DNA of 64,000 bases, taken from positions 576,001 through 640,000 of the forward strand of contig OZ240211.1 of the NCBI GenBank assembly GCA_965197525.1, in the 5' to 3' direction. The stretch is from Nitrosopumilus sp. Lineage in GTDB: Archaea; Thermoproteota; Nitrososphaeria; Nitrososphaerales; Nitrosopumilaceae. The translations under genes and the position numbers were made by a program. Shown piece by piece: positions 7,561 through 60,672 of the stretch. The notes under the pieces are model-generated. The model had not been told where the DNA came from and did no database searches. It worked only from the letters and a program-made list of their open reading frames with translations. How positions within the stretch are numbered: position 1 is the first letter of the stretch; every line of letters starts with the position of its first letter.

Positions 7561-7856
7561 TACTCACGGTGTTCAATTTGTTTAAAAGCCCGATTTTTTG
7601 TACAAAAGTTGTAATAATTCAGAAATTCTGCAAGTTCTTTGCGGAACTATTTAGCATAACAATTCCTTGTTATCTTTTTTGATCGAATTAGTATTTGAGA
7701 AAATTAGTGTTGTTTTTTAATTCTTAGGTTCTGTTAACTTACCGTCACCTGATTAATCGTGTTAAGTGTCGTCACCTGAGATCTGGTTCGAAAGAGGAGG
7801 ATAAAATATGATGGAAACGCAGATTAACTCTATATCTAGATCATACTTCATAAGAA

Positions 7857-8828
7857 ATGCAAAAAAGAGATTGGATTCTATGGACGATAGTCGCAGGTAT
7901 ATTCATATCTCTGTCATTGCCAATAATATTACCAGACGTAAACGAATTTACAACTGTAGTAATTGCACCTGTAGCAGCTGGAGTCATGATGCTTATTTTT
8001 AAGCAGTATTTTTTTGACGGCATACCATATAGTACGAAAGAAGAACACACGAAAAATATTTGTAAAGTCTACATGTTACTTACACGTGTTGGAATTAAAC
8101 AAGGTAGGCGGAACGATTCACTATGGAAACGTTTTCTAAGGTTTCCAACAGAATATAAACCAGTGGCGGGCCAGATTGTGGAAGAATTATTAGATGGTGT
8201 GCATGTTGAGCAAATATATGAAGATCAACTAGGAGATCATCCTGCTTATCTTCACTATGACTCTGCATTAGAACATCTTAAGAAGCATAGGAAATACAAG
8301 CCTATCTACAAGCATTGGGAAAACACAAAAACCATGTTGGACGAACTCAACAGCAAAACTGGTATTGAGGAAAGGCTTGAAGGCGTAATAAAGGAAAAAA
8401 TGCATCGCTACTTTCCTGCCCTGCAAAGTTTCGCACTAGGAAAAAAATCTTCAGATTTTTACGACATGGATTATATCGTGAAATTTATGATGAAATATTT
8501 CAATAATCTAGACGGCTTTTCAAGACATGCTTTGGACTCTTTGGTTTGTAATAAATCAGGCAGAAACAAATTCGTTTATTCGCAGTGGTATGTTGACAAT
8601 CCTCACATCACCGTGAACTCTGACAGTAAGATAGATTTTAAGACATACAAAAAGTTAGTGAAAGAGATGCAAGAAGATGATTCACTGAATGATTTTTACA
8701 ATGAGTATGAAAATGAACGCTGTAATATCATAAAAGAATTGACTTACTTTCAAGATGAATTAGAAGAACTTGTAAAAGATCTAAAAAGAGGGAAACTGAT
8801 AGAAGGTAAATGCGATGTGGGGTTTTGA
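7857..8828 (+). CDS. Hypothetical cargo protein with N-terminal TM hairpin
   Basis: 323 aa ORF with two hydrophobic N-terminal segments, inside the TIR element. Confidence 0.7.
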   Translation: MQKRDWILWTIVAGIFISLSLPIILPDVNEFTTVVIAPVAAGVMMLIFKQYFFDGIPYSTKEEHTKNICKVYMLLTRVGIKQGRRNDSLWKRFLRFPTEYKPVAGQIVEELLDGVHVEQIYEDQLGDHPAYLHYDSALEHLKKHRKYKPIYKHWENTKTMLDELNSKTGIEERLEGVIKEKMHRYFPALQSFALGKKSSDFYDMDYIVKFMMKYFNNLDGFSRHALDSLVCNKSGRNKFVYSQWYVDNPHITVNSDSKIDFKTYKKLVKEMQEDDSLNDFYNEYENERCNIIKELTYFQDELEELVKDLKRGKLIEGKCDVGF

Positions 8829-8839
8829 TCTCTATCAAC

Positions 8840-9989
8840 TTATTGAGGGATAAGCGAGGCGAAATTTTCCCTATAAAGCGAAGCGTTCTGAATGATAGTT
8901 TTCCATTTATTGTCGCCCTTGATGTCGATTCCTGCTCTAAGAGCTGGCGTATCTCCATCCAAACTCATGTGGGGTCTTATGTAGTTATGATATAATTTGA
9001 TGCCGTCTATTGCAGGAGAATCATCTTTTTTGAGTCCACGAAACACTTTCTCACGGTCTCTGAACTCCCCGTTTAGCCTTTCCTGTATGTTGTTGTTTGC
9101 TACTTGGTTTTTGAAATGTACCTCTTTGATGTGTTTGCTTGGCTTGTGTAAAAAATTCTTTGGTGCAAACTCTTTTTTGAAAGCGTCATTATACGCTGGT
9201 AGACCATCCGTTACAAAAACACTTGGAGTTTTCTTTGTTACATCTTTACCCATCTTTAACAAACTTTGTGCATCATGTTTGAACTTGCTATCAGCTACCT
9301 CTTGAGCAATCCAAAATCTTGTCTCGTTATCCATCATGGCAAACAAATATTTGCGATCTCCTTTGACTTTGAGCCATACCTCATCTGCGTGCCATTTCTC
9401 ACCTACTTGCGGTGTAATAGTGGACAAGTAATTATCCATAAGTTTGGTGTATTTTTTTACCCAGTTGTATATTGAGATATGGCTCATGTTGACACCTTGT
9501 AACTTTAGAAATTTTTGTACTCCTCTAATGGATTCGCCTGTAAAGTACAGTTGCATGGCACTTGTAATAACCTGGGGTGAGGCGTGCATCTTTTCAAATC
9601 CAAGATTGAATGAAAAATATTTTTTGCATTTCATACATTGGTATTTCTGTATAGAGTGGGTCTTGTTCTTTCTGATGCCTTTCTTTTTGATGTCTTCTGA
9701 CTTGCAGAACTGGCAACATGTAACTGTAATCTCATCAACTACTGTAATATTCTGTCTTACCTCTTCTCTAATCTTAAGACTAATTTCAACTGCGTGTATA
9801 TGTTTACAACATACTTTACAGAACTGATGATCTGGACACTGACATGTCCAACCTGCCTCTGTGGATACTATCTCATAGGTATTCTCTGATGACTGTGATT
9901 TTACAAAGTAACGGCTATCATCAACCCTTTCTATCTGGTTTTGTCTCTCTGCTATGATTTGACCTCTAGCCTGTCTTCGATTCGTACAT
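8840..9989 (-). CDS. IS6-family DDE transposase with N-terminal SWIM and Zn-ribbon domains; nearest upstream ATG is out of frame by 1 nt
   Basis: WHADEVW / FVTDGLPAY / NNNIQERLNG DDE motifs; frame stays open upstream of 9634 to 9988 (WTCQCPDHQFCKVCCKHIHAV SWIM; CQFCKS..YQCMKC); ATG at 9989-9987 is +1 relative to this frame. Confidence 0.85.
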
Positions 9990-10063
9990 TATAGGCATAT
10001 TAATGCCTATATAACTTATGCCCTTTAATATAGGCATAAATATAACAGGTCATAATACCTAGT

Positions 10064-10237
10064 ATGAAAAACCTAGTAAAGTATTCAAATGTTGTAATTG
10101 CAAACAAGAACCAGACGGTACGGTGTACGATTCCCAAGGACATTGCAGAGATGCTAGATATAACCACTGACAACAGAATAAAATGGACTTTGGAAATTAA
10201 AACTGGTCAGATAGTATTAGAGCTTGTAAAGGAATAA
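10064..10237 (+). CDS. AbrB/MazE/SpoVT-like small DNA-binding protein (missed by ORF track)
   Basis: MKNLVKYSNVVIANKNQTVRCTIPKDIAEMLDITTDNRIKWTLEIKTGQIVLELVKE: TIPKDIA..L.I....I.W pattern; divergent from the transposase. Confidence 0.7.
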   Translation: MKNLVKYSNVVIANKNQTVRCTIPKDIAEMLDITTDNRIKWTLEIKTGQIVLELVKE

Positions 10238-10247
10238 TCATGATAAG

Positions 10248-10508
10248 TCATGGGATTGATGAGGGCTTGCAGTATTCACAATCACGGGGTGGGTTTTCAT
10301 ACCCATATTTTTCAGCTAAACACTCTGCTATCTTGTAGACCTTTTGAAGGGTTGATGCAGTATGCCAATCTGAATTTTTAGCTGTAGGTTGTTTTCTGCG
10401 TGTATAGTAAGGACACGTTCTTTTATGAATCTTGATATCTCCAACTTTTGGTTTGTTGCGATAAACTGCAAATCCATCTAAATTATGATTCAATATCACT
10501 GAATTCAA
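10248..10508 (-). CDS. Small hypothetical protein with IH...C and C-terminal CxxC
   Basis: KIHKRTCPY ... RDCEYCKP; cargo position. Confidence 0.55.
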   Translation of the reverse strand: MNSVILNHNLDGFAVYRNKPKVGDIKIHKRTCPYYTRRKQPTAKNSDWHTASTLQKVYKIAECLAEKYGYENPPRDCEYCKPSSIP

Positions 10509-10712
10509 TTACGGTTAATATATAATCGTAGTTATTGTAGAAAAAAGGATTTGATCGGTCAAGGGATTTGATCTGTTCAGCATCTACACTGAATTTTTAA
10601 ATAATTGGTACATTTTTTTGATTTATGCTTCCTAATCAAGAAAAAGAACCTGAAACGTAAACGTTTACACTTCCTTTTTCAATAAAATAAATGTTAAATA
10701 CAGTTTCGTTAG

Positions 10713-12140
10713 TGTATTGTCCTGAAAGTAGTTCACCCCTCACATCAGGCTCATAACCTAGGTGGGCGCGTTCCATGACCGATTTTTTCAGCGGCATGGC
10801 ATCCCATGTAAAATCTATGAAAGACACAGCCAACTTGTCCATTACTGGAAACAGTGGTGTGTGGGTCCGCAGATGGAGACGCTCTACTGTGTGGCGTTAT
10901 ATAGGAAGACGGAGAGTACGAGTAATGAAAAAACTTGATCAAGCCAAAGTGGAATGGATTATCAAAGAAAAGCGTAAAGATACTGCAAATAACAAAGAGA
11001 TTGCAGCAAAGATGAACGTCTCTGTCAGATGGGTTCAAAAGCTGCACAAGAGATACAAAGATGCAGACAAGATAGTATATCCTGTCCCAATGGGAAGACC
11101 AAAAAAGAGTGCACCCGGACGACTAGAACACTCTGTGATTCTCTCAGCAATATCAAACGAGATTCGAGGAGCTGCAACCTTGGAGCGCGTCATAAGATCA
11201 TCTGTAGGAATGTATATTGCGCACAACTTTATACACAAAGTATTGAAAGATGCAGATTATGTAGATGCCAGTACAAACAAGGGCAAGAGGCGCAAGTGGG
11301 TTAGGTGGGAACGAGATTACTCCAATTCCCTGTGGCATACTGATTTCAAACATCTTGACGATGGCAGATGGTTCCTGTGTTACCAGGATGACGCTTCACG
11401 TTTTGTGACTGGTTTTGGGGTATTTGCAGAGGCAACCACAGAAAACGCCCTAAAGGTACTTGATGAGGCCATAAAAAATCACGGCAAACCAGCATCAATC
11501 CTGACAGATCGTGGTACCCAGTTCTATGCCACAGAGTCTGAGGTCAAGAAGAAGGGAGTCTCCAAATTTGAACAAAGACTGGTGGAACTTGACATCAAAC
11601 ACATATTGGCACGTGTACGACATCCACAGACAAATGGCAAACTAGAACGCCTGCACGGAGAGATACAGCGCAAACTAGGCCACTTTGAAGGTGCTTCAGC
11701 TGGCAAGACTCGACGTGATACCTCAGAGAACTCTAGCGTGGGAGGACCGTTTTACACCGCATCTGCAAAGGATCCCGTGGAACGGTTCATGGAATGGTAC
11801 AACTACAACAGGCCGCATATGTCACTTGACTGGGACAATCTAGAGACTCCGGTACAGGCATTTAAGAGAAAGATGCCGCCTGCTGGCAAGACGGTGACAG
11901 ATAGTCAAACAGGTCAAAAGTACAGTGTAGAGTAACATTATGACATTAAAACGGATGTTTTATTCTTAGTGGACACTACATAATTTTTTGAATAGTTGTC
12001 ATGCGTGGAGTGGAAATGAATAAAATTCATGAATTGTACAGCAGAATTTAGCGCAAGAGAGTTATACATCACTCTAGAACATCATACATGCAAACATCTC
12101 CAAGTTTTGAAGAGGGGCGAACTACTTTTGGGATCCCACA
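10713..12140 (+). mobile_element. IS481-family insertion sequence
   Basis: TGT...ACA ends; imperfect ~30-bp IR (TGTATTGTCCTGAAAGTAGTTCACCCCTC vs TGTGGGATCCCAAAAGTAGTTCGCCCCTC); flanked by 14-bp direct repeat TACAGTTTCGTTAG at 10699-10712 and 12141-12154. Confidence 0.85.
10925..11935 (+). CDS. IS481-family transposase (HTH + rve integrase core)
   Basis: WHTDFK, QDDASR, ILTDRGTQF, PQTNGKLER motifs; start chosen at MKKLDQ (ORF is open from 10775). Confidence 0.9.
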   Translation: MKKLDQAKVEWIIKEKRKDTANNKEIAAKMNVSVRWVQKLHKRYKDADKIVYPVPMGRPKKSAPGRLEHSVILSAISNEIRGAATLERVIRSSVGMYIAHNFIHKVLKDADYVDASTNKGKRRKWVRWERDYSNSLWHTDFKHLDDGRWFLCYQDDASRFVTGFGVFAEATTENALKVLDEAIKNHGKPASILTDRGTQFYATESEVKKKGVSKFEQRLVELDIKHILARVRHPQTNGKLERLHGEIQRKLGHFEGASAGKTRRDTSENSSVGGPFYTASAKDPVERFMEWYNYNRPHMSLDWDNLETPVQAFKRKMPPAGKTVTDSQTGQKYSVE

Positions 12141-12168
12141 TACAGTTTCGTTAGACTAATGACAAAGT

Positions 12169-12735
12169 ATGTCAGAACCGCCAAAAAACTCAAAGGCTTG
12201 GTATCTCTTACCAGTGTTTCTATTTGCTCTAGGCGGAGTAATTATGTTTTTGGTATTACGTAAAAAGAACTCACAGATGGCGAAACAGGGCCTTATTCTA
12301 GGAGTTACCATATCAGTGGTTTGGTTTTTGGCTCCAATTCTTAGCGGAGCAGCATCACCTCTATGGTTTCTGGAAGATATAGAAGAATATGAATACGAAT
12401 CTAATAATTTTGAAAAGTCTCCAGATAAGCAGAAGCTTGAGATAGATAAGCAGAAGCTTGAGATAGATAAGCAGAAGCTTGAGGCAGAGTTAGCAAAACT
12501 TGAGGTAGTGAAGCAGATGCTTGAGGCAGAGAATTCTGATAGGATAGTGTCTAATGATCAATGTTCATTATTTTGTGATTCAAACAACTATGAACCAGTT
12601 TGGGCCAAGTCTATGGGTAAATATCAAGCTACGAGTAAATGTCAATCTATAGTCATTGAGAACTTTCAATCTAAAGACGGAAAATGGTGTATTGAATTAC
12701 TAGGCAAAATTCTAGATGATCAATATGCACCGTAA
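12169..12735 (+). CDS. Membrane protein with (IDKQKLE)n coiled-coil repeat
   Basis: Two N-terminal TM helices (WYLLPVFL..GG); 21-bp tandem unit at 12424-12483. Confidence 0.7.
   Translation: MSEPPKNSKAWYLLPVFLFALGGVIMFLVLRKKNSQMAKQGLILGVTISVVWFLAPILSGAASPLWFLEDIEEYEYESNNFEKSPDKQKLEIDKQKLEIDKQKLEAELAKLEVVKQMLEAENSDRIVSNDQCSLFCDSNNYEPVWAKSMGKYQATSKCQSIVIENFQSKDGKWCIELLGKILDDQYAP
12424..12483 (+). repeat. 21-bp tandem repeat GATAAGCAGAAGCTTGAGATA, ~2.9 copies
   Basis: Read directly from sequence. Confidence 0.9.
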
Positions 12736-12919
12736 TACGGTATCTATACCTCAAGTTTTGCTAACTCTGTCTCAAGCTTCTGCTTCTCTTGCCATTCTAC
12801 CTCTTTCTTCTCTAGTTGTCTAGGTGACGACAGTTAACAGCAAGAGTCAGGTGACGGTAAGTTAACAGAACCCATCTAACAATATGTTAATATGCTATAG
12901 TATATAACATATCTATATC

Positions 12920-22903: not shown

Positions 22904-23020
22904 GTAATCGAAACTCTCTATATATTTCATATAAACCTTGATTGAGTAGGTTCTGTGAAGTTATCGGGAGTTATATGTCAATTCCTAAAATGTATAAACC
23001 TCTAAACCGTAAGATATTCG

Positions 23021-24223
23021 TTGAAAGCGATAAAGTCAATATCACAGAAATATACGCCAAACTCTGATCTAATGGATATGATGAGTACATTCACAAAGAT
23101 GGTCAATCATTGCATCAAGATAGGGTTGAAAGAAGACACTCACAATATGAAGAGGTTGTCCATGTTATGTTATCATGAATTACGTAATTATGACATCCTG
23201 TCTTCATACAAACTAAATGCAATATCACGAGCTGCAGGCATGTTATCAAACAGAAAACAATCAATCAAACGAGGTGTCAGAATAAGAGATCTAATAGTCA
23301 AAAATCCCTTTATGACAAACTGTTACGGCATAAAACACAACGGTGCACTACTAACAATCCCATACAAGAGACATAACCCAATCAACATTTTACTCAACGA
23401 TCACACCCAAAAAATCCTATCTGATCCCGCCTTGACGGTGCGCTCGTTTTCATTGACTGCTCTGAACATCAGTCTTTGTGTTTCAAAAACAGTGCAAGAG
23501 ATCGAGTGCACCAAGAAAGTGGGAATAGACAGAAACCTAAGAAATGTGACGTGTGGGAATGAGAAAATGGTAACATTCTACAAGACAAACAAGTTACTGT
23601 CAATCAAAGAGAACACAATACATGCAAGAGCAGGATTCCACAGAAATGATCGCAGAAAGAAAGGTCAATTCTGGAAACAAAGACAGAGACGAATGAGCAA
23701 TAGAACAAAGCAGTACATCCACAGAATCTCAAAACATATTATTGACAATGCAGTCAAAAACAAGACTGCAATCGTCATGGAAAACCTGAAAGGAATAAGA
23801 AAACTGTACCGAAAAGGAAACAGTCAAGGTAACAAGTACAGACGTAGATTGAACGGGTGGCAATTCTACGAGTTACAACGCCAAATAGAATACAAAGCCC
23901 AATGGGTCGGGCTACCTCCAGTCGAATTTGTAGATCCAAAACGCACGAGCACGCAGTGTCCGCAATGCGGAAAGAAACTCCAAGAGGACATGCAACAACA
24001 TCGTAAAATGTCGTGCAATAATTGCGGTTTGTTTATGGACAGAGATATTATCGCTGCCATGAACATATCACGCAAACTGCCTCCTAGGTTTAGGGGTAGT
24101 AGAGATGACATATATGAAGCGCAGTCTGGCACTTTTGAGCCGGCGATGACGGAACCTAGCACACCATTGGTAATCCGAATAGTCGATATGTCAAAGTCAA
24201 GTTTAGGGGTTAACTCCCGATAA
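23021..24223 (+). CDS. tnpB: TnpB RNA-guided endonuclease (intact)
   Basis: VGIDRNL (RuvC-I), IVMENL (RuvC-II), TSTQCPQCG..CNNCG..DRDIIAAMNI (Zn finger, RuvC-III); TTG start; stop codon lies within the right TIR. Confidence 0.95.
   Translation: MKAIKSISQKYTPNSDLMDMMSTFTKMVNHCIKIGLKEDTHNMKRLSMLCYHELRNYDILSSYKLNAISRAAGMLSNRKQSIKRGVRIRDLIVKNPFMTNCYGIKHNGALLTIPYKRHNPINILLNDHTQKILSDPALTVRSFSLTALNISLCVSKTVQEIECTKKVGIDRNLRNVTCGNEKMVTFYKTNKLLSIKENTIHARAGFHRNDRRKKGQFWKQRQRRMSNRTKQYIHRISKHIIDNAVKNKTAIVMENLKGIRKLYRKGNSQGNKYRRRLNGWQFYELQRQIEYKAQWVGLPPVEFVDPKRTSTQCPQCGKKLQEDMQQHRKMSCNNCGLFMDRDIIAAMNISRKLPPRFRGSRDDIYEAQSGTFEPAMTEPSTPLVIRIVDMSKSSLGVNSR
24060..24222 (+). ncRNA. Putative TnpB omegaRNA (scaffold plus guide) overlapping the tnpB 3' end
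   Basis: Hairpins CTGCCTCCTAGGTTTAGGGGTAG and CTGGCACTTTTGAGCCGG covary with copies 2/3; boundaries approximate. Confidence 0.6.
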
Positions 24224-24236
24224 CTTCACAGAACCC

Positions 24237-24797
24237 ATGGAACGATACATGATCCACTTGAAGAATACAGGATTTGCACCTGAAAATGCTCGTGAGATAG
24301 TATACAAAGCTCGAGAACTAGCAGTAGATATGAATGCATCTGTAAGAATTGCCAGAGTTGCAAAAAAATTCGTAGAGCTTGATGTTGCAATAGAAAAAGA
24401 AGATCTCGATGAATTAGTTGCCAGATTTGCACCAATTGGCCCAATTGATAATGTCAGACACGTAATAGAAGAAGAGATCGACAAAGAACAAGGAATTCAA
24501 GATGGAATATTTTATTTTAACAGTGAGCGATTCTGGGAGAGTCATGAAGCGTTTGAGGGAGTATGGAAACAATGTTTTGGACGAGAGAAGGAACTGGTAC
24601 AAGGAATTATCTTGATGGCAGTGGCGTTTGCGCATGCACAAAAAAACGATGTCCCCATTGGAATAGGAATGCTTCGGAGAGTTTTAGAGAAACTAAATGA
24701 TTCTCCATCAATGTATCACCGCATTGATATAGACAGAATGAGAGATAAAGCACTGAATATGCAAAAGACAAACAGTTTGGCTATATTTGAGATTTAA
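24237..24797 (+). CDS. DUF309 domain protein
   Basis: GIFYFNSERFWESHEAFEGVW...QGIILMAVAFAH. Confidence 0.85.
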   Translation: MERYMIHLKNTGFAPENAREIVYKARELAVDMNASVRIARVAKKFVELDVAIEKEDLDELVARFAPIGPIDNVRHVIEEEIDKEQGIQDGIFYFNSERFWESHEAFEGVWKQCFGREKELVQGIILMAVAFAHAQKNDVPIGIGMLRRVLEKLNDSPSMYHRIDIDRMRDKALNMQKTNSLAIFEI

Positions 24798-38179: not shown

Positions 38180-38202
38180 GGTTCTGTTAACTTTCGAGGG
38201 GT
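38180..38202 (+). repeat. Orphan IS6-type terminal repeat
   Basis: GGTTCTGTTAACTT is identical to the first 14 nt of the 7727 TIR; no complete partner found. Confidence 0.6.
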
Positions 38203-38215
38203 AATCTAACTTTGA

Positions 38216-38653
38216 TTATCTTAAATCCGCCTTGTAAATGTGATCTTTGAGATCGGTTGTGTTGGTATCGATCAAAGCGGATATTTCCTTATGTTCTTGT
38301 TGTGTTGGCTCTCTTTTATACCACTGTTGAAAATAAGACAATGCAGCACATTTAAGAAAACCTATACCTACACCATATTGAAAATCTCTATTGTTTTGAA
38401 TTAGTGGTTCGTTAGTTATTGGATCCTTGATATTTGTTACTGTAGTTGGAGGTTTGCTGGATATCAAATCTTTTTGAAGTTTTTGTGTAACTTCTTCTAT
38501 CAAGGCCTTGGTAAAATCTAGTTTTAACTCAGTCAACAGAGTATTTTTTCTTGTGTTGTTTAATATCTTCTTCGGTGTACATATGAAAACAGTTGCCAGC
38601 CCATTCCATGCATGCTTGAATCCATTCTGGTGTAGGTGGTTCTGCCATATCAA
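38216..38653 (-). CDS. Hypothetical cargo protein
   Basis: ORF directly inside the orphan IS6-type end. Confidence 0.5.
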   Translation of the reverse strand: MIWQNHLHQNGFKHAWNGLATVFICTPKKILNNTRKNTLLTELKLDFTKALIEEVTQKLQKDLISSKPPTTVTNIKDPITNEPLIQNNRDFQYGVGIGFLKCAALSYFQQWYKREPTQQEHKEISALIDTNTTDLKDHIYKADLR

Positions 38654-38798
38654 AAAACAATCATACCAAGTTAAAGGTATTATTTTATGATTTCATCAAG
38701 GCTTGCATTCTGAATTATGGTTTTCCATTTGTTGTCGCCTTTGATTCTAAAACAAATAATGTCATAATTGTTGTTGTAGTTACCTCGTGCGTTTCATA

Positions 38799-38993
38799 TT
38801 AGTCCACCGTAATTTTGTTGCCCTTGATTCTGAACGTTACCTTGTCAGGCTCGCCTAGCATATCCACTATCGGTTTTGGTACTATGCACATCGATCCTCT
38901 GGATCTGTCAATGAACAGGCTTACCGTAAACTCCGTCTCGTCCTTCTTCCATCTTGTCATAATATTCCTGAATGTTAGTGTTATATTAACCAT
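38799..38993 (-). CDS. AbrB-like small DNA-binding protein
   Basis: CIVPKPIVDMLGEPDKVTFRIKGNKITV; start probably MTRWKKD. Confidence 0.75.
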   Translation of the reverse strand: MVNITLTFRNIMTRWKKDETEFTVSLFIDRSRGSMCIVPKPIVDMLGEPDKVTFRIKGNKITVD

Positions 38994-39039
38994 ATGGTTA
39001 AAGTAATGTTAATATAACCCTAAGGATAATATTATTCAT

Positions 39040-39125
39040 GACAGGATTGCTTAGCAAGGTTAAAGCGACAGATTCAGAATCTGTGTCTCTCGCCGAGATC
39101 GTGGGTTCGAATCCCACTCCTGTCG
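39040..39125 (+). tRNA. Class II tRNA with CAG anticodon and Ser-like identity (G73)
   Basis: Acceptor GACAGGA/TCCTGTC; D-arm GCTT..GG..AAGC; anticodon stem ACAGA/TCTGT with loop TTCAGAA; long variable arm; T-arm GTGGG-TTCGAAT-CCCAC; discriminator G. Confidence 0.85.
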
Positions 39126-39174
39126 CTACTTTTGATTCTTTTTGTGTTATATTAATTTTTGAGGTGTCAGCGAT

Positions 39175-40176
39175 ATGAATGCAAGACAGACAAGAGGTCA
39201 GATCAGTATGAGATATATGAATAAAAACAAGAAAGACACACAAGCACCAAGTAAATCATTTAGAAAAGGCATCACATTGATGGAATTATTCAGGATGTTT
39301 CCTGATAATGATACTGCAGAGAAATGGTTTGAGTCTAGAATATGGAAAGATGGCAGAAGGTGCCCTACCTGTAATAACCCAGACACAAAAGAGGCAAAAC
39401 ATCCAAAGATGCCTTATCGGTGTTATGTTTGTCACAGTTATTTCAGTGTTAAAAAAGGGACTGTCATGGAACAGTCAAAAATATCATATCAGCATTGGGC
39501 TATAGCTACCTATCTTTTTGCCGTAAATCTAAAGGGTGTGTCATCTATGAAGATACATAGAGACCTAGGAATAACACAAAAATCAGCTTGGTTCTTGGTT
39601 CATCGTTTAAGAGAATCATGGAAAATGTTGGCAGGAGTTGACTCTATGACTGGTCCAGTTGAAATAGATGAGGTATACCTGGGAGGCAAAGAAAAAAATA
39701 AACACGCAGACAAAAAACAGTCCAAAGGTCAAGGTGGTAAAAACATGACTGCAGTAATCGGAATAAAAGACAGAGCAACTAACAAAATATCTGCTCAACC
39801 AGTACCAGAGACAACCAGAGCCAGACTAGAGAATTTTGTAGAATCCAAGACGACACAAACTGTTACAAAGTACACTGATGAGAATCCAGCTTATAGTGAA
39901 CTGTCAAATCACGAATCTGTGAGGCATTCTGTAGGTGAATATGTCAGAGGACAAGCCCATATCAACGGACTTGAATCATTCTGGTCAATGGTCAGACGTG
40001 GATATGACGGCATATACCATCACATTTCAGAAGATCATCTGCACCGATACATCAACGAGTTCGCAGGACGTCACAACGTCAGAAGCATGGACACAATAGA
40101 CATGATGAGTGAGGTAGCAGAGAACATGATAGGGCATAGATTAACCTACAAGGACTTGATAGGTCAGGGGATTTGA
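39175..40176 (+). CDS. IS1595-family transposase
   Basis: Zn ribbon CPTC..YRCYVC; GPVEIDEVYLGG, YTDENPAY, HINGLESFWS; element ends not identified. Confidence 0.92.
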   Translation: MNARQTRGQISMRYMNKNKKDTQAPSKSFRKGITLMELFRMFPDNDTAEKWFESRIWKDGRRCPTCNNPDTKEAKHPKMPYRCYVCHSYFSVKKGTVMEQSKISYQHWAIATYLFAVNLKGVSSMKIHRDLGITQKSAWFLVHRLRESWKMLAGVDSMTGPVEIDEVYLGGKEKNKHADKKQSKGQGGKNMTAVIGIKDRATNKISAQPVPETTRARLENFVESKTTQTVTKYTDENPAYSELSNHESVRHSVGEYVRGQAHINGLESFWSMVRRGYDGIYHHISEDHLHRYINEFAGRHNVRSMDTIDMMSEVAENMIGHRLTYKDLIGQGI

Positions 40177-40187
40177 TCCATGTTCTA

Positions 40188-40439
40188 TTATTTTGATTGT
40201 TGATTTACATATTCATAAATAGAGTCAAAAAATTCTTCCTTCAACCCAATATCTACTAATTGATCTTCCACTAACTCGGAATTAACACTATCTTTTTTGT
40301 CAACAAACACTTCCATTGAAGAAATGATTGAATGATGGAGATAATAAACAAATTCACTATCGGCTTCGGTAATACGCAGAAATCCTAATATAGAAAAAAC
40401 CGATAGCATTTTTTTAGGTTCGTAACTACTTTGTTTCAA
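40188..40439 (-). CDS. Hypothetical protein
   Basis: 83 aa ORF convergent with the transposase. Confidence 0.45.
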   Translation of the reverse strand: MKQSSYEPKKMLSVFSILGFLRITEADSEFVYYLHHSIISSMEVFVDKKDSVNSELVEDQLVDIGLKEEFFDSIYEYVNQQSK

Positions 40440-40463
40440 GATCTTCTCCTATGGTAGAAGACC

Positions 40464-40631
40464 TTAATGTGTCAATATTTCTGGGTGTCTGTGTATGTAC
40501 ATCGTCACAGCCTCATGTATTTTTTTCATTGCCTCGTCCTCTGTTTTAGCAAAAACACGAACAGGTTTCATAGCAGGGCAAAACGCCATAAAACCCCCTT
40601 CCACTGACTTCATTTGAAACGTGTATTGCAT
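40464..40631 (-). CDS. HicB-like (UPF0150) protein (missed by ORF track)
   Basis: MQYTFQMKSVEGGFMAFCPAMKPVRVFAKTEDEAMKKIHEAVTMYIHRHPEILTH*: EGGF.A.CP......T.DEA...I.EA...Y pattern. Confidence 0.65.
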   Translation of the reverse strand: MQYTFQMKSVEGGFMAFCPAMKPVRVFAKTEDEAMKKIHEAVTMYIHRHPEILTH

Positions 40632-40697
40632 TATGAACACATACCATAATTACCTAATATACACTGCAAGGCGTTGTTTAAAAAGATTGTTAACAGG

Positions 40698-59340: not shown

Positions 59341-60672
59341 GGTTCTGTTGGGCTAACGGGTGTTGACTGCGGAGGATCATGTCAGATTCCACAACCATCA
59401 ACAACACATTGACTACTCGACTTTGACATATCGACTATTCGGATTACCGGTCTGCAGGGTTCCGCCATCGCCGGTTCAAAAACACCGGACTGCGCTTCAT
59501 GTATGCCATCTCTACTATCTCTAAACCTAGGAGACAGTTTGCGTGATATGTTCATGGCAGCGATGATATCCCTGTCCATAAACAAACCGCAATTATTACA
59601 CGATGATTTACGATGTTGTTGCATGTCCTCTTGGAGTCTCTTTCCGCATTGCGGACACTGCGTGCTCGTGTTTTTTGGGTCTACTGTTTTTACAGGTAGC
59701 CCGACCCATTGGGCTTTGTATTCTATTTGTCTTTGTAGTTCAAAGAATTGCCATCCGTTCAATCTACGTCTGTATTTGTTGCCTTGACCGTTTCCTTTTC
59801 CGTACAGTTTTCTAATTCCCTTTAGATTTTCTAGAACAATGACAGCCTTTTTCTTGACTGCATTGTCTACTATGTTTTTTGAGATTCTGTGTATGTACTG
59901 TTTTGTTCTGTTTGACATTCTTCTCTGTTTTTCTTTGTAGAATTGACCTTTCTTTCTTTTGTCGTTTCTACGGAAACCAGATCTGGCATGTATTGTGTTC
60001 TCTTTGATTGAGAGTAACTTGTTGGTTTTGTAGAATGTTACCTCTTCTTCATTTCCGCATGTGACGTTTCTAAGGTTTCTGTCTACTCCTACTGTCTTGG
60101 CGCACTCTATCTCCTGTACTTTTTTTGAAATACAAAGACTGATGTTGAGAGCAGTCAATGAAAACGAGCGCACTGCCAAGGCGGGATCCGACAGTATTTT
60201 TTGAGTATGTTCGTTGAGTAGGATGTTAATTGGATTTCTTGGCTTGTATGGAATTGTGAGTAAGGCGCCGTTGTGTTTTATACGGTAACAATTAGTGATA
60301 AACGGATTTTTGATAATTGGATCTTTTACTTTGAGGCCACGTTTGACTGACTGATCTCTGTTTGCCAGGATGCCAGCAGCTCGTGATATTGCATTGAGTT
60401 TGTATGAAGATAGGATGTCGTAGTGACGTAATTCGTGATAGCATAACATAGACAACCGTTTCATGTTGTGGGTATCTTCCTTTAGCCCTATCTTGATACA
60501 ACGGTTAACCATGTCTGTGAACGTGATCATCATGTCCATTAGGTCAGAGTTTGGTGTATGTTTTTGTGCTATTGACTTTATTGCTCTCAACAAGTATTGT
60601 ACGGTTTAAGGTTATCTATATTTAGTGTTATGGGTATAATTTCTGATCAACACCCGTTAACCCAACAGAACC
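59341..60672 (-). mobile_element. Non-autonomous IS6-type TIR element carrying tnpB (copy 3, 1332 bp)
   Basis: 26-bp TIR at 59341-59366 (one mismatch) and 60647-60672; 8-bp TSD. Confidence 0.93.
59382..60593 (-). CDS. tnpB: TnpB RNA-guided endonuclease (intact)
   Basis: VGVDRNL, IVLENL, CPQCG..CNNCG, DRDIIAAMNI; TTG start. Confidence 0.95.
   Translation of the reverse strand: MLRAIKSIAQKHTPNSDLMDMMITFTDMVNRCIKIGLKEDTHNMKRLSMLCYHELRHYDILSSYKLNAISRAAGILANRDQSVKRGLKVKDPIIKNPFITNCYRIKHNGALLTIPYKPRNPINILLNEHTQKILSDPALAVRSFSLTALNISLCISKKVQEIECAKTVGVDRNLRNVTCGNEEEVTFYKTNKLLSIKENTIHARSGFRRNDKRKKGQFYKEKQRRMSNRTKQYIHRISKNIVDNAVKKKAVIVLENLKGIRKLYGKGNGQGNKYRRRLNGWQFFELQRQIEYKAQWVGLPVKTVDPKNTSTQCPQCGKRLQEDMQQHRKSSCNNCGLFMDRDIIAAMNISRKLSPRFRDSRDGIHEAQSGVFEPAMAEPCRPVIRIVDMSKSSSQCVVDGCGI

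What the first reader, a model, noticed from the sequence alone, without database searches (positions are those of the whole stretch)
22949..24235. Second tnpB-TIR subfamily with a different IR: diversified family or repeated capture
Seen: a related but diverged TnpB is bracketed by a different perfect 25-bp TIR (GGTTCTGTGAAGTTATCGGGAGTTA) that shares only GGTTCTGT with copies 2/3. Its stop codon lies inside the right TIR. Similarity to copies 2/3 upstream of the start is limited to a short promoter-like stretch (..AAACCGTA..). Inference: the tnpB-IS6 partnership is old enough to have diverged ends with both TIR arms co-evolving, or it arose more than once.
Basis: partly seen in the sequence, partly recalled or inferred. 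Interest (0 to 1): 0.78.

Follow-up and report, generated by a model that had tools for sequence, protein, structure and literature searches.

The report
TnpB subfamily on IS6-like ends
This is one diverged copy of a large family of small archaeal jumping elements that carry only the RNA-guided nuclease TnpB and its guide RNA between IS6-like transposon ends. Its 'different' end repeat is a diverged version of the same repeat, which probably stays in step with the gene because the right repeat is part of the guide-RNA fold.

Summary
The perfect 25-bp TIR and the stop codon inside the right arm are real. But the TIR shares 19/25 bases with copies 2/3, not 8, and the whole left end aligns.

The genome is a 2.2-Mb Nitrosopumilus-type archaeon found in sponge samples. 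It holds about 33 full-length tnpB elements in about 12 TIR subtypes. A tree of the internal DNA matches TIR type with the minimum number of changes. GGTTCTGT-type ends occur on both deep branches of the TnpB homologues found (Nitrososphaerota, Bathyarchaeia, one Asgard MAG). This is one old, co-diversifying family, not repeated capture.

No Y1 or IS607 transposase is present. 24 of 34 TIR-paired elements have 7-8/8-matching 8-bp TSDs, so I infer that IS6-like SWIM/Zn-DDE transposases move them in trans.

Covariation supports an omegaRNA whose last hairpin uses the right TIR as its 3' arm.

All 24 elements with a TSD have W-T-R just 5' of the left TSD. Transposase-carrying relatives do not. 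This is probably a TAM.

This copy lacks a TSD. Relatives show that about 37 bp plus the right TSD copy were deleted flush with the right TIR.

Earlier notes of this scan reached the same general reading (TnpB on IS6-like ends, TTR motif) on other windows of this genome.

The parts
22938..22940 (+). TTG, a TAM-like motif immediately 5' of the left target-duplication copy
   Evidence: Sequence. W-T-R stands at this position in 24/24 TSD-bearing siblings.
22941..22948 (+). ATTGAGTA, the presumed left copy of the original 8-bp target duplication (right copy lost)
   Evidence: Searches show no matching right copy. Relatives show that DNA is missing on the right side.
22949..22973 (+). Left terminal inverted repeat, 25 bp, IS6-like GGTTCTGT start
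22974..23020 (+). Left-end internal region: a TATA-like stretch (about 22989-22998) and the conserved TAAACCGTA block upstream of tnpB. I read it as an archaeal promoter/leader (inferred).
   Evidence: It aligns with copies 2/3 with one 10-nt indel.
23021..24223 (+). tnpB ORF, 400 aa, TTG start. RuvC residues D170/E254/D342 and the CxxC..CxxC zinc finger are intact.
24076..24100 (+). omegaRNA helix A: a hairpin whose loop carries the invariant AGGTTT (24086-24091)
   Evidence: 93% of cells paired against 35-54% in slid controls; 7/7 pairs show compensatory changes.
24106..24193 (+). omegaRNA helix B: a long-range stem (24106-24112 with 24187-24193) enclosing inner stems
   Evidence: 93% paired against 22-43% slid; 6/7 pairs compensatory.
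24196..24229 (+). omegaRNA terminal hairpin E: the 5' arm is the end of the tnpB ORF and the 3' arm is positions 7-13+ of the right TIR
   Evidence: 80% paired against 28-48% slid; 6/7 pairs compensatory. The minimum-energy fold pairs the TIR with the upstream arm in 22/24 diverse elements.
24211..24235 (-). Right terminal inverted repeat. It contains the tnpB stop codon (24221-24223).
24231..24235 (+). Terminal GAACC, proposed to pair with the helix-A loop GGUUY as a pseudoknot just 5' of the guide
   Evidence: 119/120 cells pairable but nearly invariant. One G-C to A-U double change (L127).
24236..24255 (+). Flank that read-through from the right end would supply as guide. After the adjacent deletion it is no longer the original target.
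   Evidence: Inference from TnpB biology (PMC13565253).
40698..42028 (-). Copy 2 (TGGGTTAAC TIR subtype): tnpB frameshifted, no TSD
59341..60672 (-). Copy 3 (TGGGTTAAC TIR subtype): intact 403-aa tnpB, 8-bp TSD AGATTAAG
7727..12872 (.). 5146-bp element with perfect 26-bp GGTTCTGT-type TIRs. It carries an IS6-like transposase (about 8864-9982, minus strand) plus cargo and a nested rve-type IS. It is one of the candidate trans-acting transposase sources.
38180..40697 (.). Region with a left GGTTCTGT-type end and an IS1595-family transposase (39175-40176): the rival mobiliser

Best explanation
Window 22949-24235 is one copy of the largest subfamily of a single, old family of non-autonomous archaeal transposons. 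This subfamily has 16 of the roughly 33 full-length elements in the genome.

Each element consists of IS6-like terminal inverted repeats, a short promoter-like left end, an apparently active tnpB, and an omegaRNA scaffold overlapping the last ~160-220 nt. It has no transposase.

I infer that it is moved in trans by SWIM/Zn-ribbon IS6-like DDE transposases encoded elsewhere in the genome, which make 8-bp target duplications.

The TIR differs between subfamilies because it has diverged. The two arms stay alike because both must be bound by the transposase. The right arm also stays matched to internal sequence because it forms the 3' arm of the last omegaRNA hairpin, and its terminal GAACC can pair with a conserved loop just before the guide.

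Inferred: read-through into the flank gives a guide made of the TSD plus downstream DNA. The W-T-R motif that always precedes the left TSD would then be the TAM, so that TnpB can cut the uninserted allele and copy the element in.

This particular copy inserted at TTG|ATTGAGTA between two divergent genes. It then lost its right TSD copy and about 37 bp of flank by a deletion flush with its right end.
For: Shown:
- The perfect 25-bp TIR pair is real.
- TnpB passes the family cut-offs, and D170/E254/D342 and the zinc finger are conserved across homologues of 28-100% identity.
- Codon positions 1-2 vary far less than position 3 over the first ~900 nt, so the protein is under purifying selection.
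- The genome has 55 TnpB matches, about 33 of them full length.
- 24 of 34 TIR-paired elements have an 8-bp TSD matching at 7-8 of 8 positions.
- No Y1 or IS607 transposase was found in a 99%-complete single-contig genome.
- An autonomous 1970-bp IS has 26-bp GGTTCTGT TIRs, an 8-bp TSD and a single IS6-like transposase. That transposase scores 42 bits on PF13610 (cut-off 27), and 103-121 bits on NF033587 over the full model.
- The same transposase type occurs in 115 of 301 genomes of the order.
- TIR type and the internal-sequence tree are congruent.
- TIR-bearing homologues lie on both deep branches of the protein tree, and the apparent 'no TIR' sisters still keep ...ACAGAACC right ends.
- The exact TIR is found in another Nitrosopumilus MAG.
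- Third-codon-position diversity collapses in the last ~280 nt.
- Helices A, B and E are supported by covariation against slid controls. The common G-U pairs mean the sense strand is the RNA.
- W-T-R stands 5' of the left TSD in 24/24 elements, against 2/24 on the mirrored right side. Background is 0.088 and binomial P is about 4e-26.
- In other genomes it is 15/17, or 17/17 for N-T-R.
- omegaRNA-bearing MITEs with a TSD show it in 4/4 cases.
- Transposase-carrying elements show it at 2/18 ends. Fisher P against the left ends of tnpB elements is 9e-10.
- The motif changes with TnpB clade: CTTT in one clade and ATAT in another.
- In five relatives, ~41 nt lie between ...CCTTGATTG and CATGGAACG. 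Here only AGTA plus the element lies between them.

From the literature:
- Solo TnpBs with ends matching DDE elements are known (PMC10691335).
- TIRs form part of Fanzor reRNA scaffolds, and a pseudoknot next to the guide is known (PMC10711439).
- IS6-type intramolecular events leave one original and one new flank (PMC7986276).
Against: - No transposase-carrying element with exactly this TIR was found in this genome or in the related MAG.
- No experiment shows that an IS6-like transposase moves these elements. Archaeal and long Zn-finger 'IS6' members are of disputed family membership and untested mechanism (PMC6807381).
- The NCBIfam IS6 score is below its curated cut-off.
- An IS1595-type transposase also sits next to a GGTTCTGT end.
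- The pseudoknot is nearly invariant, so covariation barely tests it.
- The ends and guide of the RNA are not observed.
- The TAM reading is in silico only. If transposition is replicative, nothing is excised, so restorative homing has no obvious role. From my own knowledge, Nitrosopumilus-type cells are not known to be highly polyploid, so a drive would need DNA exchange between cells.
- An earlier follow-up of this scan with the same general reading was later checked and 'part of it fell' (bold reading 30/100). I could not see which part.
Confidence: 0.75

Rival explanations
1. The W-T-R motif is a target-site preference of the transposition machinery, not a TnpB TAM. It would say nothing about homing.
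For: The motif sits at a fixed distance from the cut sites in every insertion. DDE transposases can have target preferences. The transposases that move the tnpB elements have not been identified, and they may differ from the ones sampled.
Against: - The motif is one-sided although the two ends are near-identical for 25 bp: 24/24 left against 2/24 right.
- Transposase-carrying elements with the same type of ends show it only at background level, 2/18 ends.
- Its orientation follows the omegaRNA even in MITEs without tnpB.
- It changes with TnpB clade while the GGTTCTGT ends stay the same.
- It lies exactly where a TAM must lie if the guide begins at the element end.
Confidence: 0.25
2. The two TIR subfamilies come from independent captures of tnpB by different IS6-like elements (repeated capture).
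For: TIR subtypes differ at up to a third of positions. Different transposase-carrying elements in the genome carry different TIR subtypes.
Against: - The TIRs are homologous (19/25) and the left ends align throughout.
- The internal tree and TIR type are fully congruent, with the subfamilies nested as close sisters (85% protein identity).
- The same layout is shared by all subfamilies and by homologues of 30% identity: TIR, promoter-like left end, tnpB, helices A/B/E, and terminal ACAGAACC.
Confidence: 0.04
3. The mobiliser is an IS1595-family transposase, not the IS6-like one.
For: The IS1595-family ORF at window 39175-40176 lies in a region that starts with a GGTTCTGT-type end at 38180. From my own knowledge, IS1595 elements also make 8-bp duplications. 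The IS6-like transposases carry an IS1/IS1595-type N-terminal Zn domain. The 5' end of the IS1595 gene shares 91% identical DNA with the 5' regions of IS6-like transposase genes.
Against: - The genome has only two IS1595-type genes, and neither sits in a clean unit with two TIRs and a TSD.
- The IS6-like transposase is the sole ORF of a perfect TIR/TSD-bounded 1970-bp IS, and it is found in bounded elements in nine other genomes.
- It co-occurs with tnpB elements in G021 and G041.
Confidence: 0.1
4. The missing TSD of this copy comes from an assembly switch between repeat copies, or from recombination with another copy, not from an adjacent deletion.
For: Recombination between copies does swap flanks: L080 and L081 in the related MAG have exchanged right flanks. 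Short-read contigs break inside the element, so they do not link its two flanks.
Against: Both flanks belong to the same ancestral intergenic site in five relatives, in the right order and orientation. Only ~37 nt next to the right end are missing. No reciprocal flank exists in the genome.
Confidence: 0.05

Closest known systems
DDE-transposase-associated TnpB branches (DDE-1 to DDE-6) and solo TnpBs with matching ends (Altae-Tran et al. 2023, PMC10691335)
   Same: TnpB lies between inverted terminal repeats, with its 3' end close to the transposon end. Solo copies are proposed to be moved by a transposase encoded elsewhere.
   Different: The partners named in the texts I could read are IS630, ISL2 and IS1031 (PMC13565253), not an IS6-like enzyme. 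I could not see the supplement. Here no element co-encodes the transposase. The TAM-like motif 8 bp outside the end, and the TIR-omegaRNA pairing, are not described there.
Fanzor1 / Fanzor2* in eukaryotic TIR/TSD transposons (Yoon et al. 2023, PMC10711439)
   Same: A non-autonomous TIR element whose only gene is the nuclease. The TIR is folded into the guide-RNA scaffold. In the TnpB and Fanzor2 reRNAs described there, a pseudoknot lies next to the guide (it is absent from Fanzor1 reRNAs).
   Different: Those elements are eukaryotic or viral. There the short, fixed TSD is taken into the scaffold. Here the TSD is 8 bp and variable, so it would be the first 8 nt of the guide, with the TAM outside it.
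IS200/IS605 IS1341-type solo TnpB elements and ISDra2 TnpB homing (reviewed in PMC13565253)
   Same: The same protein family (DRDxN-type RuvC-III, zinc finger), an omegaRNA overlapping the tnpB 3' end, and a TAM next to the left end.
   Different: IS605 and IS607 elements have no TIRs and no TSDs and need a Y1 or serine TnpA. This family has both TIRs and TSDs, and the genome has neither TnpA.
IS6 family, long Zn-finger-bearing members (Varani et al. 2021, PMC7986276; Harmer and Hall 2019, PMC6807381)
   Same: Ends start GG with G at position 7. 8-bp duplications. PF13610-type DDE domain. An N-terminal Zn-finger extension occurs as in clades h/i. Copies are flanked by one old and one new flank, as after intramolecular events.
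   Different: The transposases are 372-383 aa with SWIM plus an IS1/IS1595-type Zn ribbon. The elements are 2-5 kb and often carry cargo. The IS6 equivalog score is below its cut-off. Only one IS6 member is reported with a passenger gene, and none with TnpB.

Membership tests
TnpB (OMEGA RNA-guided nuclease) | Family profile match over curated cut-off | tested here: met
   NF040570 scores 124.1 bits (cut-off 100). PF07282 scores 72.6 bits (cut-off 26.3).
TnpB (OMEGA RNA-guided nuclease) | RuvC D-E-D catalytic triad and C4 zinc finger | tested here: met
   D170, E254, D342, C313 and C316 are invariant and C335 is nearly invariant in an alignment of homologues of 28-100% identity; C332 is invariant too. 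The C-terminal part aligns to solved Cas12f and TnpB chains.
TnpB (OMEGA RNA-guided nuclease) | Structured omegaRNA overlapping the 3' end of tnpB and reaching the element end | tested here: met
   Third-position diversity collapses there. Three helices show compensatory changes well above slid controls. No Rfam family matches.
TnpB (OMEGA RNA-guided nuclease) | TAM-dependent, guide-dependent DNA cleavage | not testable with these tools
   Only the positional W-T-R motif is seen.
IS200/IS605 (IS1341 group) or IS607 | No TIRs, no TSD, subterminal hairpins; moved by Y1 or serine TnpA | tested here: not met
   The element has a 25-bp perfect TIR. Siblings have 8-bp TSDs. No PF01797 or NF033518 match exists in the genome.
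IS6 family (ISfinder sense): the ends and footprints of the tnpB element | TIRs starting GG with G at position 7; 8-bp target duplication | tested here: met
   GGTTCTGT ends. 24 of 34 elements have 8-bp TSDs matching at 7-8/8. Criteria are from PMC7986276 and PMC6807381. This copy itself has no TSD.
IS6 family: the candidate transposases | IS6/IS240-type DDE transposase | tested here: inconclusive
   PF13610 scores 39-53 bits (cut-off 27). The NF033587 equivalog scores 103-121 bits, under its 125 cut-off, although it matches over positions 1-200 of 202. There is an extra ~130-aa SWIM/Zn N-terminus. Archaeal and long members are of disputed membership (PMC6807381).
IS6 family: mechanism | Copy-in cointegrate formation | not testable with these tools
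   Only indirect signs: an adjacent deletion flush with the right end and flank exchange between copies.
DDE-associated TnpB (Altae-Tran 2023) | TnpB and a DDE transposase encoded inside one pair of inverted repeats in at least some members | tested here: not met
   No IS6-like transposase lies within 3 kb of tnpB in 89 loci. The larger TIR-bounded units in the related MAG are IS630 insertions into tnpB elements. It fits that paper's 'solo TnpB with matching ends' class.
Non-autonomous (MITE-like) element | TIRs and TSDs of an autonomous IS, no transposase, many copies | tested here: met
   It is atypical in coding for a protein under purifying selection.

The most novel reading that the evidence does not exclude
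An OMEGA module (TnpB plus omegaRNA) has lived for a long time as the sole cargo of a non-autonomous IS6-like DDE transposon in archaea. The right TIR doubles as the last hairpin of the guide RNA. This locks the left TIR, the right TIR and the RNA into three-way co-evolution and drives the split into TIR subfamilies. The variable 8-bp target duplication forms the first 8 nt of the guide, and a TnpB-clade-specific TAM lies just outside it. On this reading only insertions that land next to a TAM can be copied into empty alleles and persist. That would be RNA-guided homing working as a drive for a transposon that may never excise.
Probability: 0.5. Interest if true: 0.82.

Novelty: new variant of a known kind. 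Interest (0 to 1): 0.68.

Why it matters
In prokaryotes TnpB is understood as a partner of the scarlessly excising IS605 and IS607 transposons, where it restores the element after excision. A recent review asks why OMEGA modules are so rarely tied to DDE transposons and what they would gain there (PMC13565253).

This family gives a clean natural data set for that question. Dozens of independent, recent insertions have exact footprints, a one-sided motif that follows the nuclease clade, and an RNA fold that has absorbed the transposase-binding repeat.

The different repeat is divergence within one lineage under joint protein-binding and RNA-folding constraints, not a second capture.

If the TAM reading holds, it would show that RNA-guided homing can serve a DDE element whose 8-bp duplication becomes part of the guide. 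It would also supply compact archaeal TnpBs with a short T-T-R-type TAM.

Tried and rejected
- **Rfam.** A scan of the element found only a chance snoRNA match below threshold.
- **RNA evidence.** Only Logan contigs were available. Contigs from sponge metatranscriptome libraries lie on about 24012-24235 and on parts of tnpB. Such contigs cannot show ends, strand or level, and DNA may be present in RNA libraries. I therefore do not count this as evidence of an omegaRNA or of its ends.
- **Skipping joint.** One contig joint skipping 22970-24214 in run X1 has only 22 nt on one side and lies within the inverted repeat. I treat it as an assembly artefact.
- **Unbiased inverted-repeat finder.** Around tnpB in other genomes it gave noisy boundaries. 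I replaced it with a core-anchored search.
- **Duplex energies, own TIR against foreign TIRs.** The own TIR was usually among the best (rank 1 in 8/24). The test was too noisy and gave no valid statistic, so I used column-wise pair counts instead.
- **Reciprocal flanks among the TSD-less copies of this genome.** None found.
- **Larger units (2.4-2.5 kb) bounded by the finding's TIR in the related MAG.** I hoped they were autonomous elements. They are tnpB elements with nested IS630 insertions.
- **Supplement of the PNAS classification paper.** It would say whether an IS6-like branch is among DDE-1 to DDE-6, but it is not held.
- **Literature.** Searches found no paper linking TnpB with Nitrosopumilus or with IS6-type ends.
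- **The count of structure pairs.** I did not use it, to avoid typing a long dot-bracket string. The same counts were computed in a script.
Full report
**Observation.** The 25-mer GGTTCTGTGAAGTTATCGGGAGTTA occurs exactly twice in the window, at 22949-22973 (+) and 24211-24235 (-). No match occurred in any of 100 shuffles. The pair brackets 1287 bp whose only long ORF (23021-24223, TTG start, 400 aa) is a TnpB. It scores 72.6 bits on PF07282 and 124 bits on NF040570, both over their cut-offs. The stop codon (24221-24223) lies inside the right repeat.

- The repeat shares 19 of 25 positions with the repeat of copies 2/3, not only the first eight.
- The left ends align throughout, apart from a 10-nt indel.

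This copy also has no target-site duplication (ATTGAGTA on the left, CATGGAAC on the right).

**Genomic setting.** The window is part of a single-contig 2.21-Mb genome with 39.6% G+C, and archaeal genes are in the window. Close relatives of the element lie in Nitrosopumilus MAGs. The stretch is held by sponge metagenome/metatranscriptome runs.

The genome has 55 TnpB matches, about 33 of them full length at 79-100% identity. GGTTCTGT occurs 218 times, mostly as element ends. Pairing the ends gives 34 tnpB elements of 1.28-1.45 kb, and 24 of them have an 8-bp duplication matching at 7-8 of 8 positions. It also gives shorter derivatives that keep the 3' part of tnpB.

No Y1 (PF01797) or IS607-type serine transposase is found in the genome. 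So the classical partners of TnpB are missing, while the footprints are those of a DDE enzyme.

**Candidate transposase.** A 1970-bp IS (genome 746475-748444) has perfect 26-bp GGTTCTGT repeats, an 8-bp duplication and one ORF of 378 aa. This ORF and its paralogues match PF13610 above the cut-off. They match the NCBIfam IS6 equivalog over its full length at 103-121 bits, just under the 125-bit cut-off. They carry an extra N-terminus with SWIM and IS1/IS1595-type Zn modules.

One paralogue lies in the window, inside a 5146-bp TIR-bounded cargo element (7727-12872).

The enzyme type is common in the order, in 115 of 301 genomes. It is present in the two complete genomes that also hold TIR-bounded tnpB elements.

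Membership in the IS6 family proper is uncertain. Long Zn-finger members and archaeal members are placed there by ISfinder (PMC7986276), but others dispute this (PMC6807381). I therefore call the enzyme IS6-like.

An IS1595-family transposase next to a GGTTCTGT end (38180; 39175-40176) is a weaker rival.

**Diversified family or repeated capture?**
- I built a tree from the internal DNA of 32 elements with the TIRs removed. The 12 TIR types need 11 changes on it, which is the minimum possible. Shuffled labels need 16.6 on average, and 0 of 200 shuffles were as low.
- The finding's copy is the earliest-branching member of the GAAGTTATC subfamily (16 copies in that tree). That subfamily is nested next to the AACATCTTC and TGGGTTAAC (copies 2/3) subfamilies.
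- The two arms of one element are 23.8/26 identical on average. Arms of different subfamilies are 17.7/26 identical.
- Outside this genome, 40 of 89 TnpB loci have recognisable GGTTCTGT-type repeats, many with 8-bp duplications. They come from Nitrosopumilus, Nitrosotenuis, Nitrosotalea, other Nitrososphaerota, Bathyarchaeia and one Promethearchaeati MAG, at 30-89% protein identity.
- In a protein tree of 81 homologues, TIR-bearing members lie on both deep branches. The 'no TIR' sisters that I inspected still have ...ACAGAACC right ends with decayed left ends.
- The exact 25-bp repeat of the finding brackets TnpBs of 87-89% identity in another Nitrosopumilus MAG.

All this fits one old origin followed by co-divergence. 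I found nothing that calls for a second capture.

The transposase is never encoded next to tnpB. I found no transposase-carrying element with exactly this repeat. The nearest cases are a GTAATCTTCG-type repeat shared by the autonomous IS and another tnpB subfamily, and GGTTCTGTGAAGTTATAGGCACCT beside a truncated transposase in the related MAG.

**Why the repeat co-evolves with the gene.**
- Third-codon-position diversity drops from about 0.3 to 0.08-0.2 in the last ~280 nt, and there it no longer exceeds positions 1-2. This points to a second constraint on the nucleotides.
- An alignment of the last 290 nt of 24 elements (28-100% TnpB identity) gives a consensus fold. I counted base pairs against slid controls:

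| Feature | Window position | Cells paired | Slid controls | Pairs with compensatory changes |
|---|---|---|---|---|
| Helix A (hairpin, loop AGGUUY) | 24076-24100 | 93% | 35-54% | 7/7 |
| Helix B (long-range stem) | 24106-24112 with 24187-24193 | 93% | 22-43% | 6/7 |
| Helix E (see below) | 24196-24229 | 80% | 28-48% | 6/7 |

- In helix E the 5' arm follows helix B directly, and the 3' arm is positions 7-13 of the right TIR.
- Folding the tail alone pairs the TIR with the upstream arm in 22 of 24 elements, across very different TIR types.
- The last five bases, GAACC, can pair with the helix-A loop in 119 of 120 cells. This pairing is almost invariant, with a single G-C to A-U double change. 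It is therefore plausible rather than shown.
- Frequent G-U pairs mean the RNA is the tnpB-sense strand.
- The layout parallels published reRNAs. A pseudoknot next to the guide, and TIRs folded into Fanzor scaffolds, are both reported (PMC10711439).
- This also answers another first-reader note on this window, that the scaffold is 'followed by the TIR, not by flank'. On my reading the TIR is the end of the scaffold.

**A TAM-like motif.** I oriented the elements by tnpB.
- All 24 TSD-bearing elements have W-T-R directly 5' of the left duplication copy: T at -2 in 24/24, a purine at -1 in 24/24, and T (17) or A (7) at -3.
- The mirrored position on the right shows the motif in 2/24. Background frequency is 0.088 and binomial P is about 4e-26.
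- This copy has TTG there (22938-22940).
- In other genomes the motif is W-T-R in 15/17 and N-T-R in 17/17 for the clade at 36% identity or more. Deeper clades show CTTT (3/3) or ATAT (2/2) instead.
- Short derivatives that keep the omegaRNA part and have a TSD show TTA on the matching side in 4/4 cases.
- Nine transposase-carrying elements with the same kind of ends and 8-bp duplications show the motif at 2 of 18 ends, which is background. Fisher P against the left ends of tnpB elements is 9e-10.

The motif sits exactly where a TAM must be if the guide starts at the element end and reads the duplication plus flank. At the filled site the same target is preceded by ACC, so it would not be cut.

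My reading is that TnpB can cut the empty allele only at TAM-flanked insertions, and that such insertions are the ones that persist. This step is inferred. A target preference of the transposition machinery remains possible. The benefit of homing for a possibly replicative element in cells not known to be highly polyploid (my own knowledge) is unclear.

**The missing duplication of this copy.** The flanking genes are adjacent in 56 of 60 other genomes of the genus searched. In five relatives, about 41 nt lie between ...CCTTGATTG and CATGGAACG. Here only AGTA and the element lie between them. So the element inserted at TTG|ATTGAGTA. Later the right duplication copy and about 37 bp were lost by a deletion ending exactly at the right TIR. 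Such one-ended adjacent deletions fit IS6-type intramolecular transposition (PMC7986276). One consequence is that the present flank is not the original target, so this copy has probably lost any homing ability.

In the related MAG, two copies have exchanged right flanks (L080/L081). This shows the other route by which duplications are lost.

**Comparison with what is known.** TnpBs inside inverted repeats and solo TnpBs with matching ends were reported in 2023 (PMC10691335). A 2026 review names IS630, ISL2 and IS1031 as partners (PMC13565253). I found no text naming an IS6-like partner, the motif outside an 8-bp duplication, or the TIR-omegaRNA pairing in prokaryotes. The supplement that could settle the first point is not held.

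Earlier notes of this scan on other windows of the same genome reached the same general reading: TnpB on IS6-like ends, with a TTR motif. One of them was later checked and partly fell. I could not see which part.

New in this report:
- the answer to the subfamily question;
- the homology of the repeats;
- the covariation of the right TIR with the RNA;
- the contrast with transposase-carrying elements;
- the origin of the missing duplication.

**Verdict.** The feature is real. The 'diversified family' reading is supported and 'repeated capture' is not. It is a new variant of a known kind.

Noticed in passing
window 7727-12872: A 5146-bp element with perfect 26-bp GGTTCTGT-type TIRs and no TSD. 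It carries an IS6-like SWIM/Zn transposase, several ORFs without family matches, and a nested rve-type (IS481/IS3-like) transposase at 10775-11935.
   Followed up: partly
window 38180-40697, and genome 1394730-1395005, 2003465-2003522, 922582-922629: The 5' end and upstream region of the IS1595-family transposase gene share up to 91% identical DNA with the 5' regions of IS6-like transposase genes elsewhere in the genome. This suggests a shared N-terminal Zn module or promoter swapped between two DDE types.
   Followed up: partly
L064 (G000:C1:699962-703151): A 3190-bp element with perfect 26-bp GGTTCTGT-type TIRs carries an IS6-like transposase plus an N6/N4 DNA methyltransferase as cargo.
   Followed up: no
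L080 and L081 (Nitrosopumilus MAG OZ245003.1): Two inverted tnpB copies about 126 kb apart have exchanged right flanks (TAGAAACT / TTATGTTA). This is the signature of an inversion by recombination between copies.
   Followed up: partly
L170:235-2771 and L171:272-2670: In the related MAG, tnpB elements with the finding's TIR are themselves interrupted by IS630-family insertions. One of them still has an 8-bp TSD preceded by TTG.
   Followed up: yes
G000:C1:143852-144348, 803351-803738, 870887-871264, 1385894-1386101 (outside the window): MITE-sized derivatives (208-497 bp) keep the two TIRs and the omegaRNA part but have lost most of tnpB. They could use TnpB supplied in trans.
   Followed up: partly
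L135, L119, L100, L099, L085, L146 (loci): In decayed copies the right end (...ACAGAACC, part of the RNA) is kept far better than the left end.
   Followed up: partly
window 24237-24797: The gene to the right of the element now starts 1 nt after the right TIR. Its ancestral upstream region, with an AAATTTAAGAAA TATA-like stretch in relatives, is deleted, so its transcription may now depend on the element.
   Followed up: no
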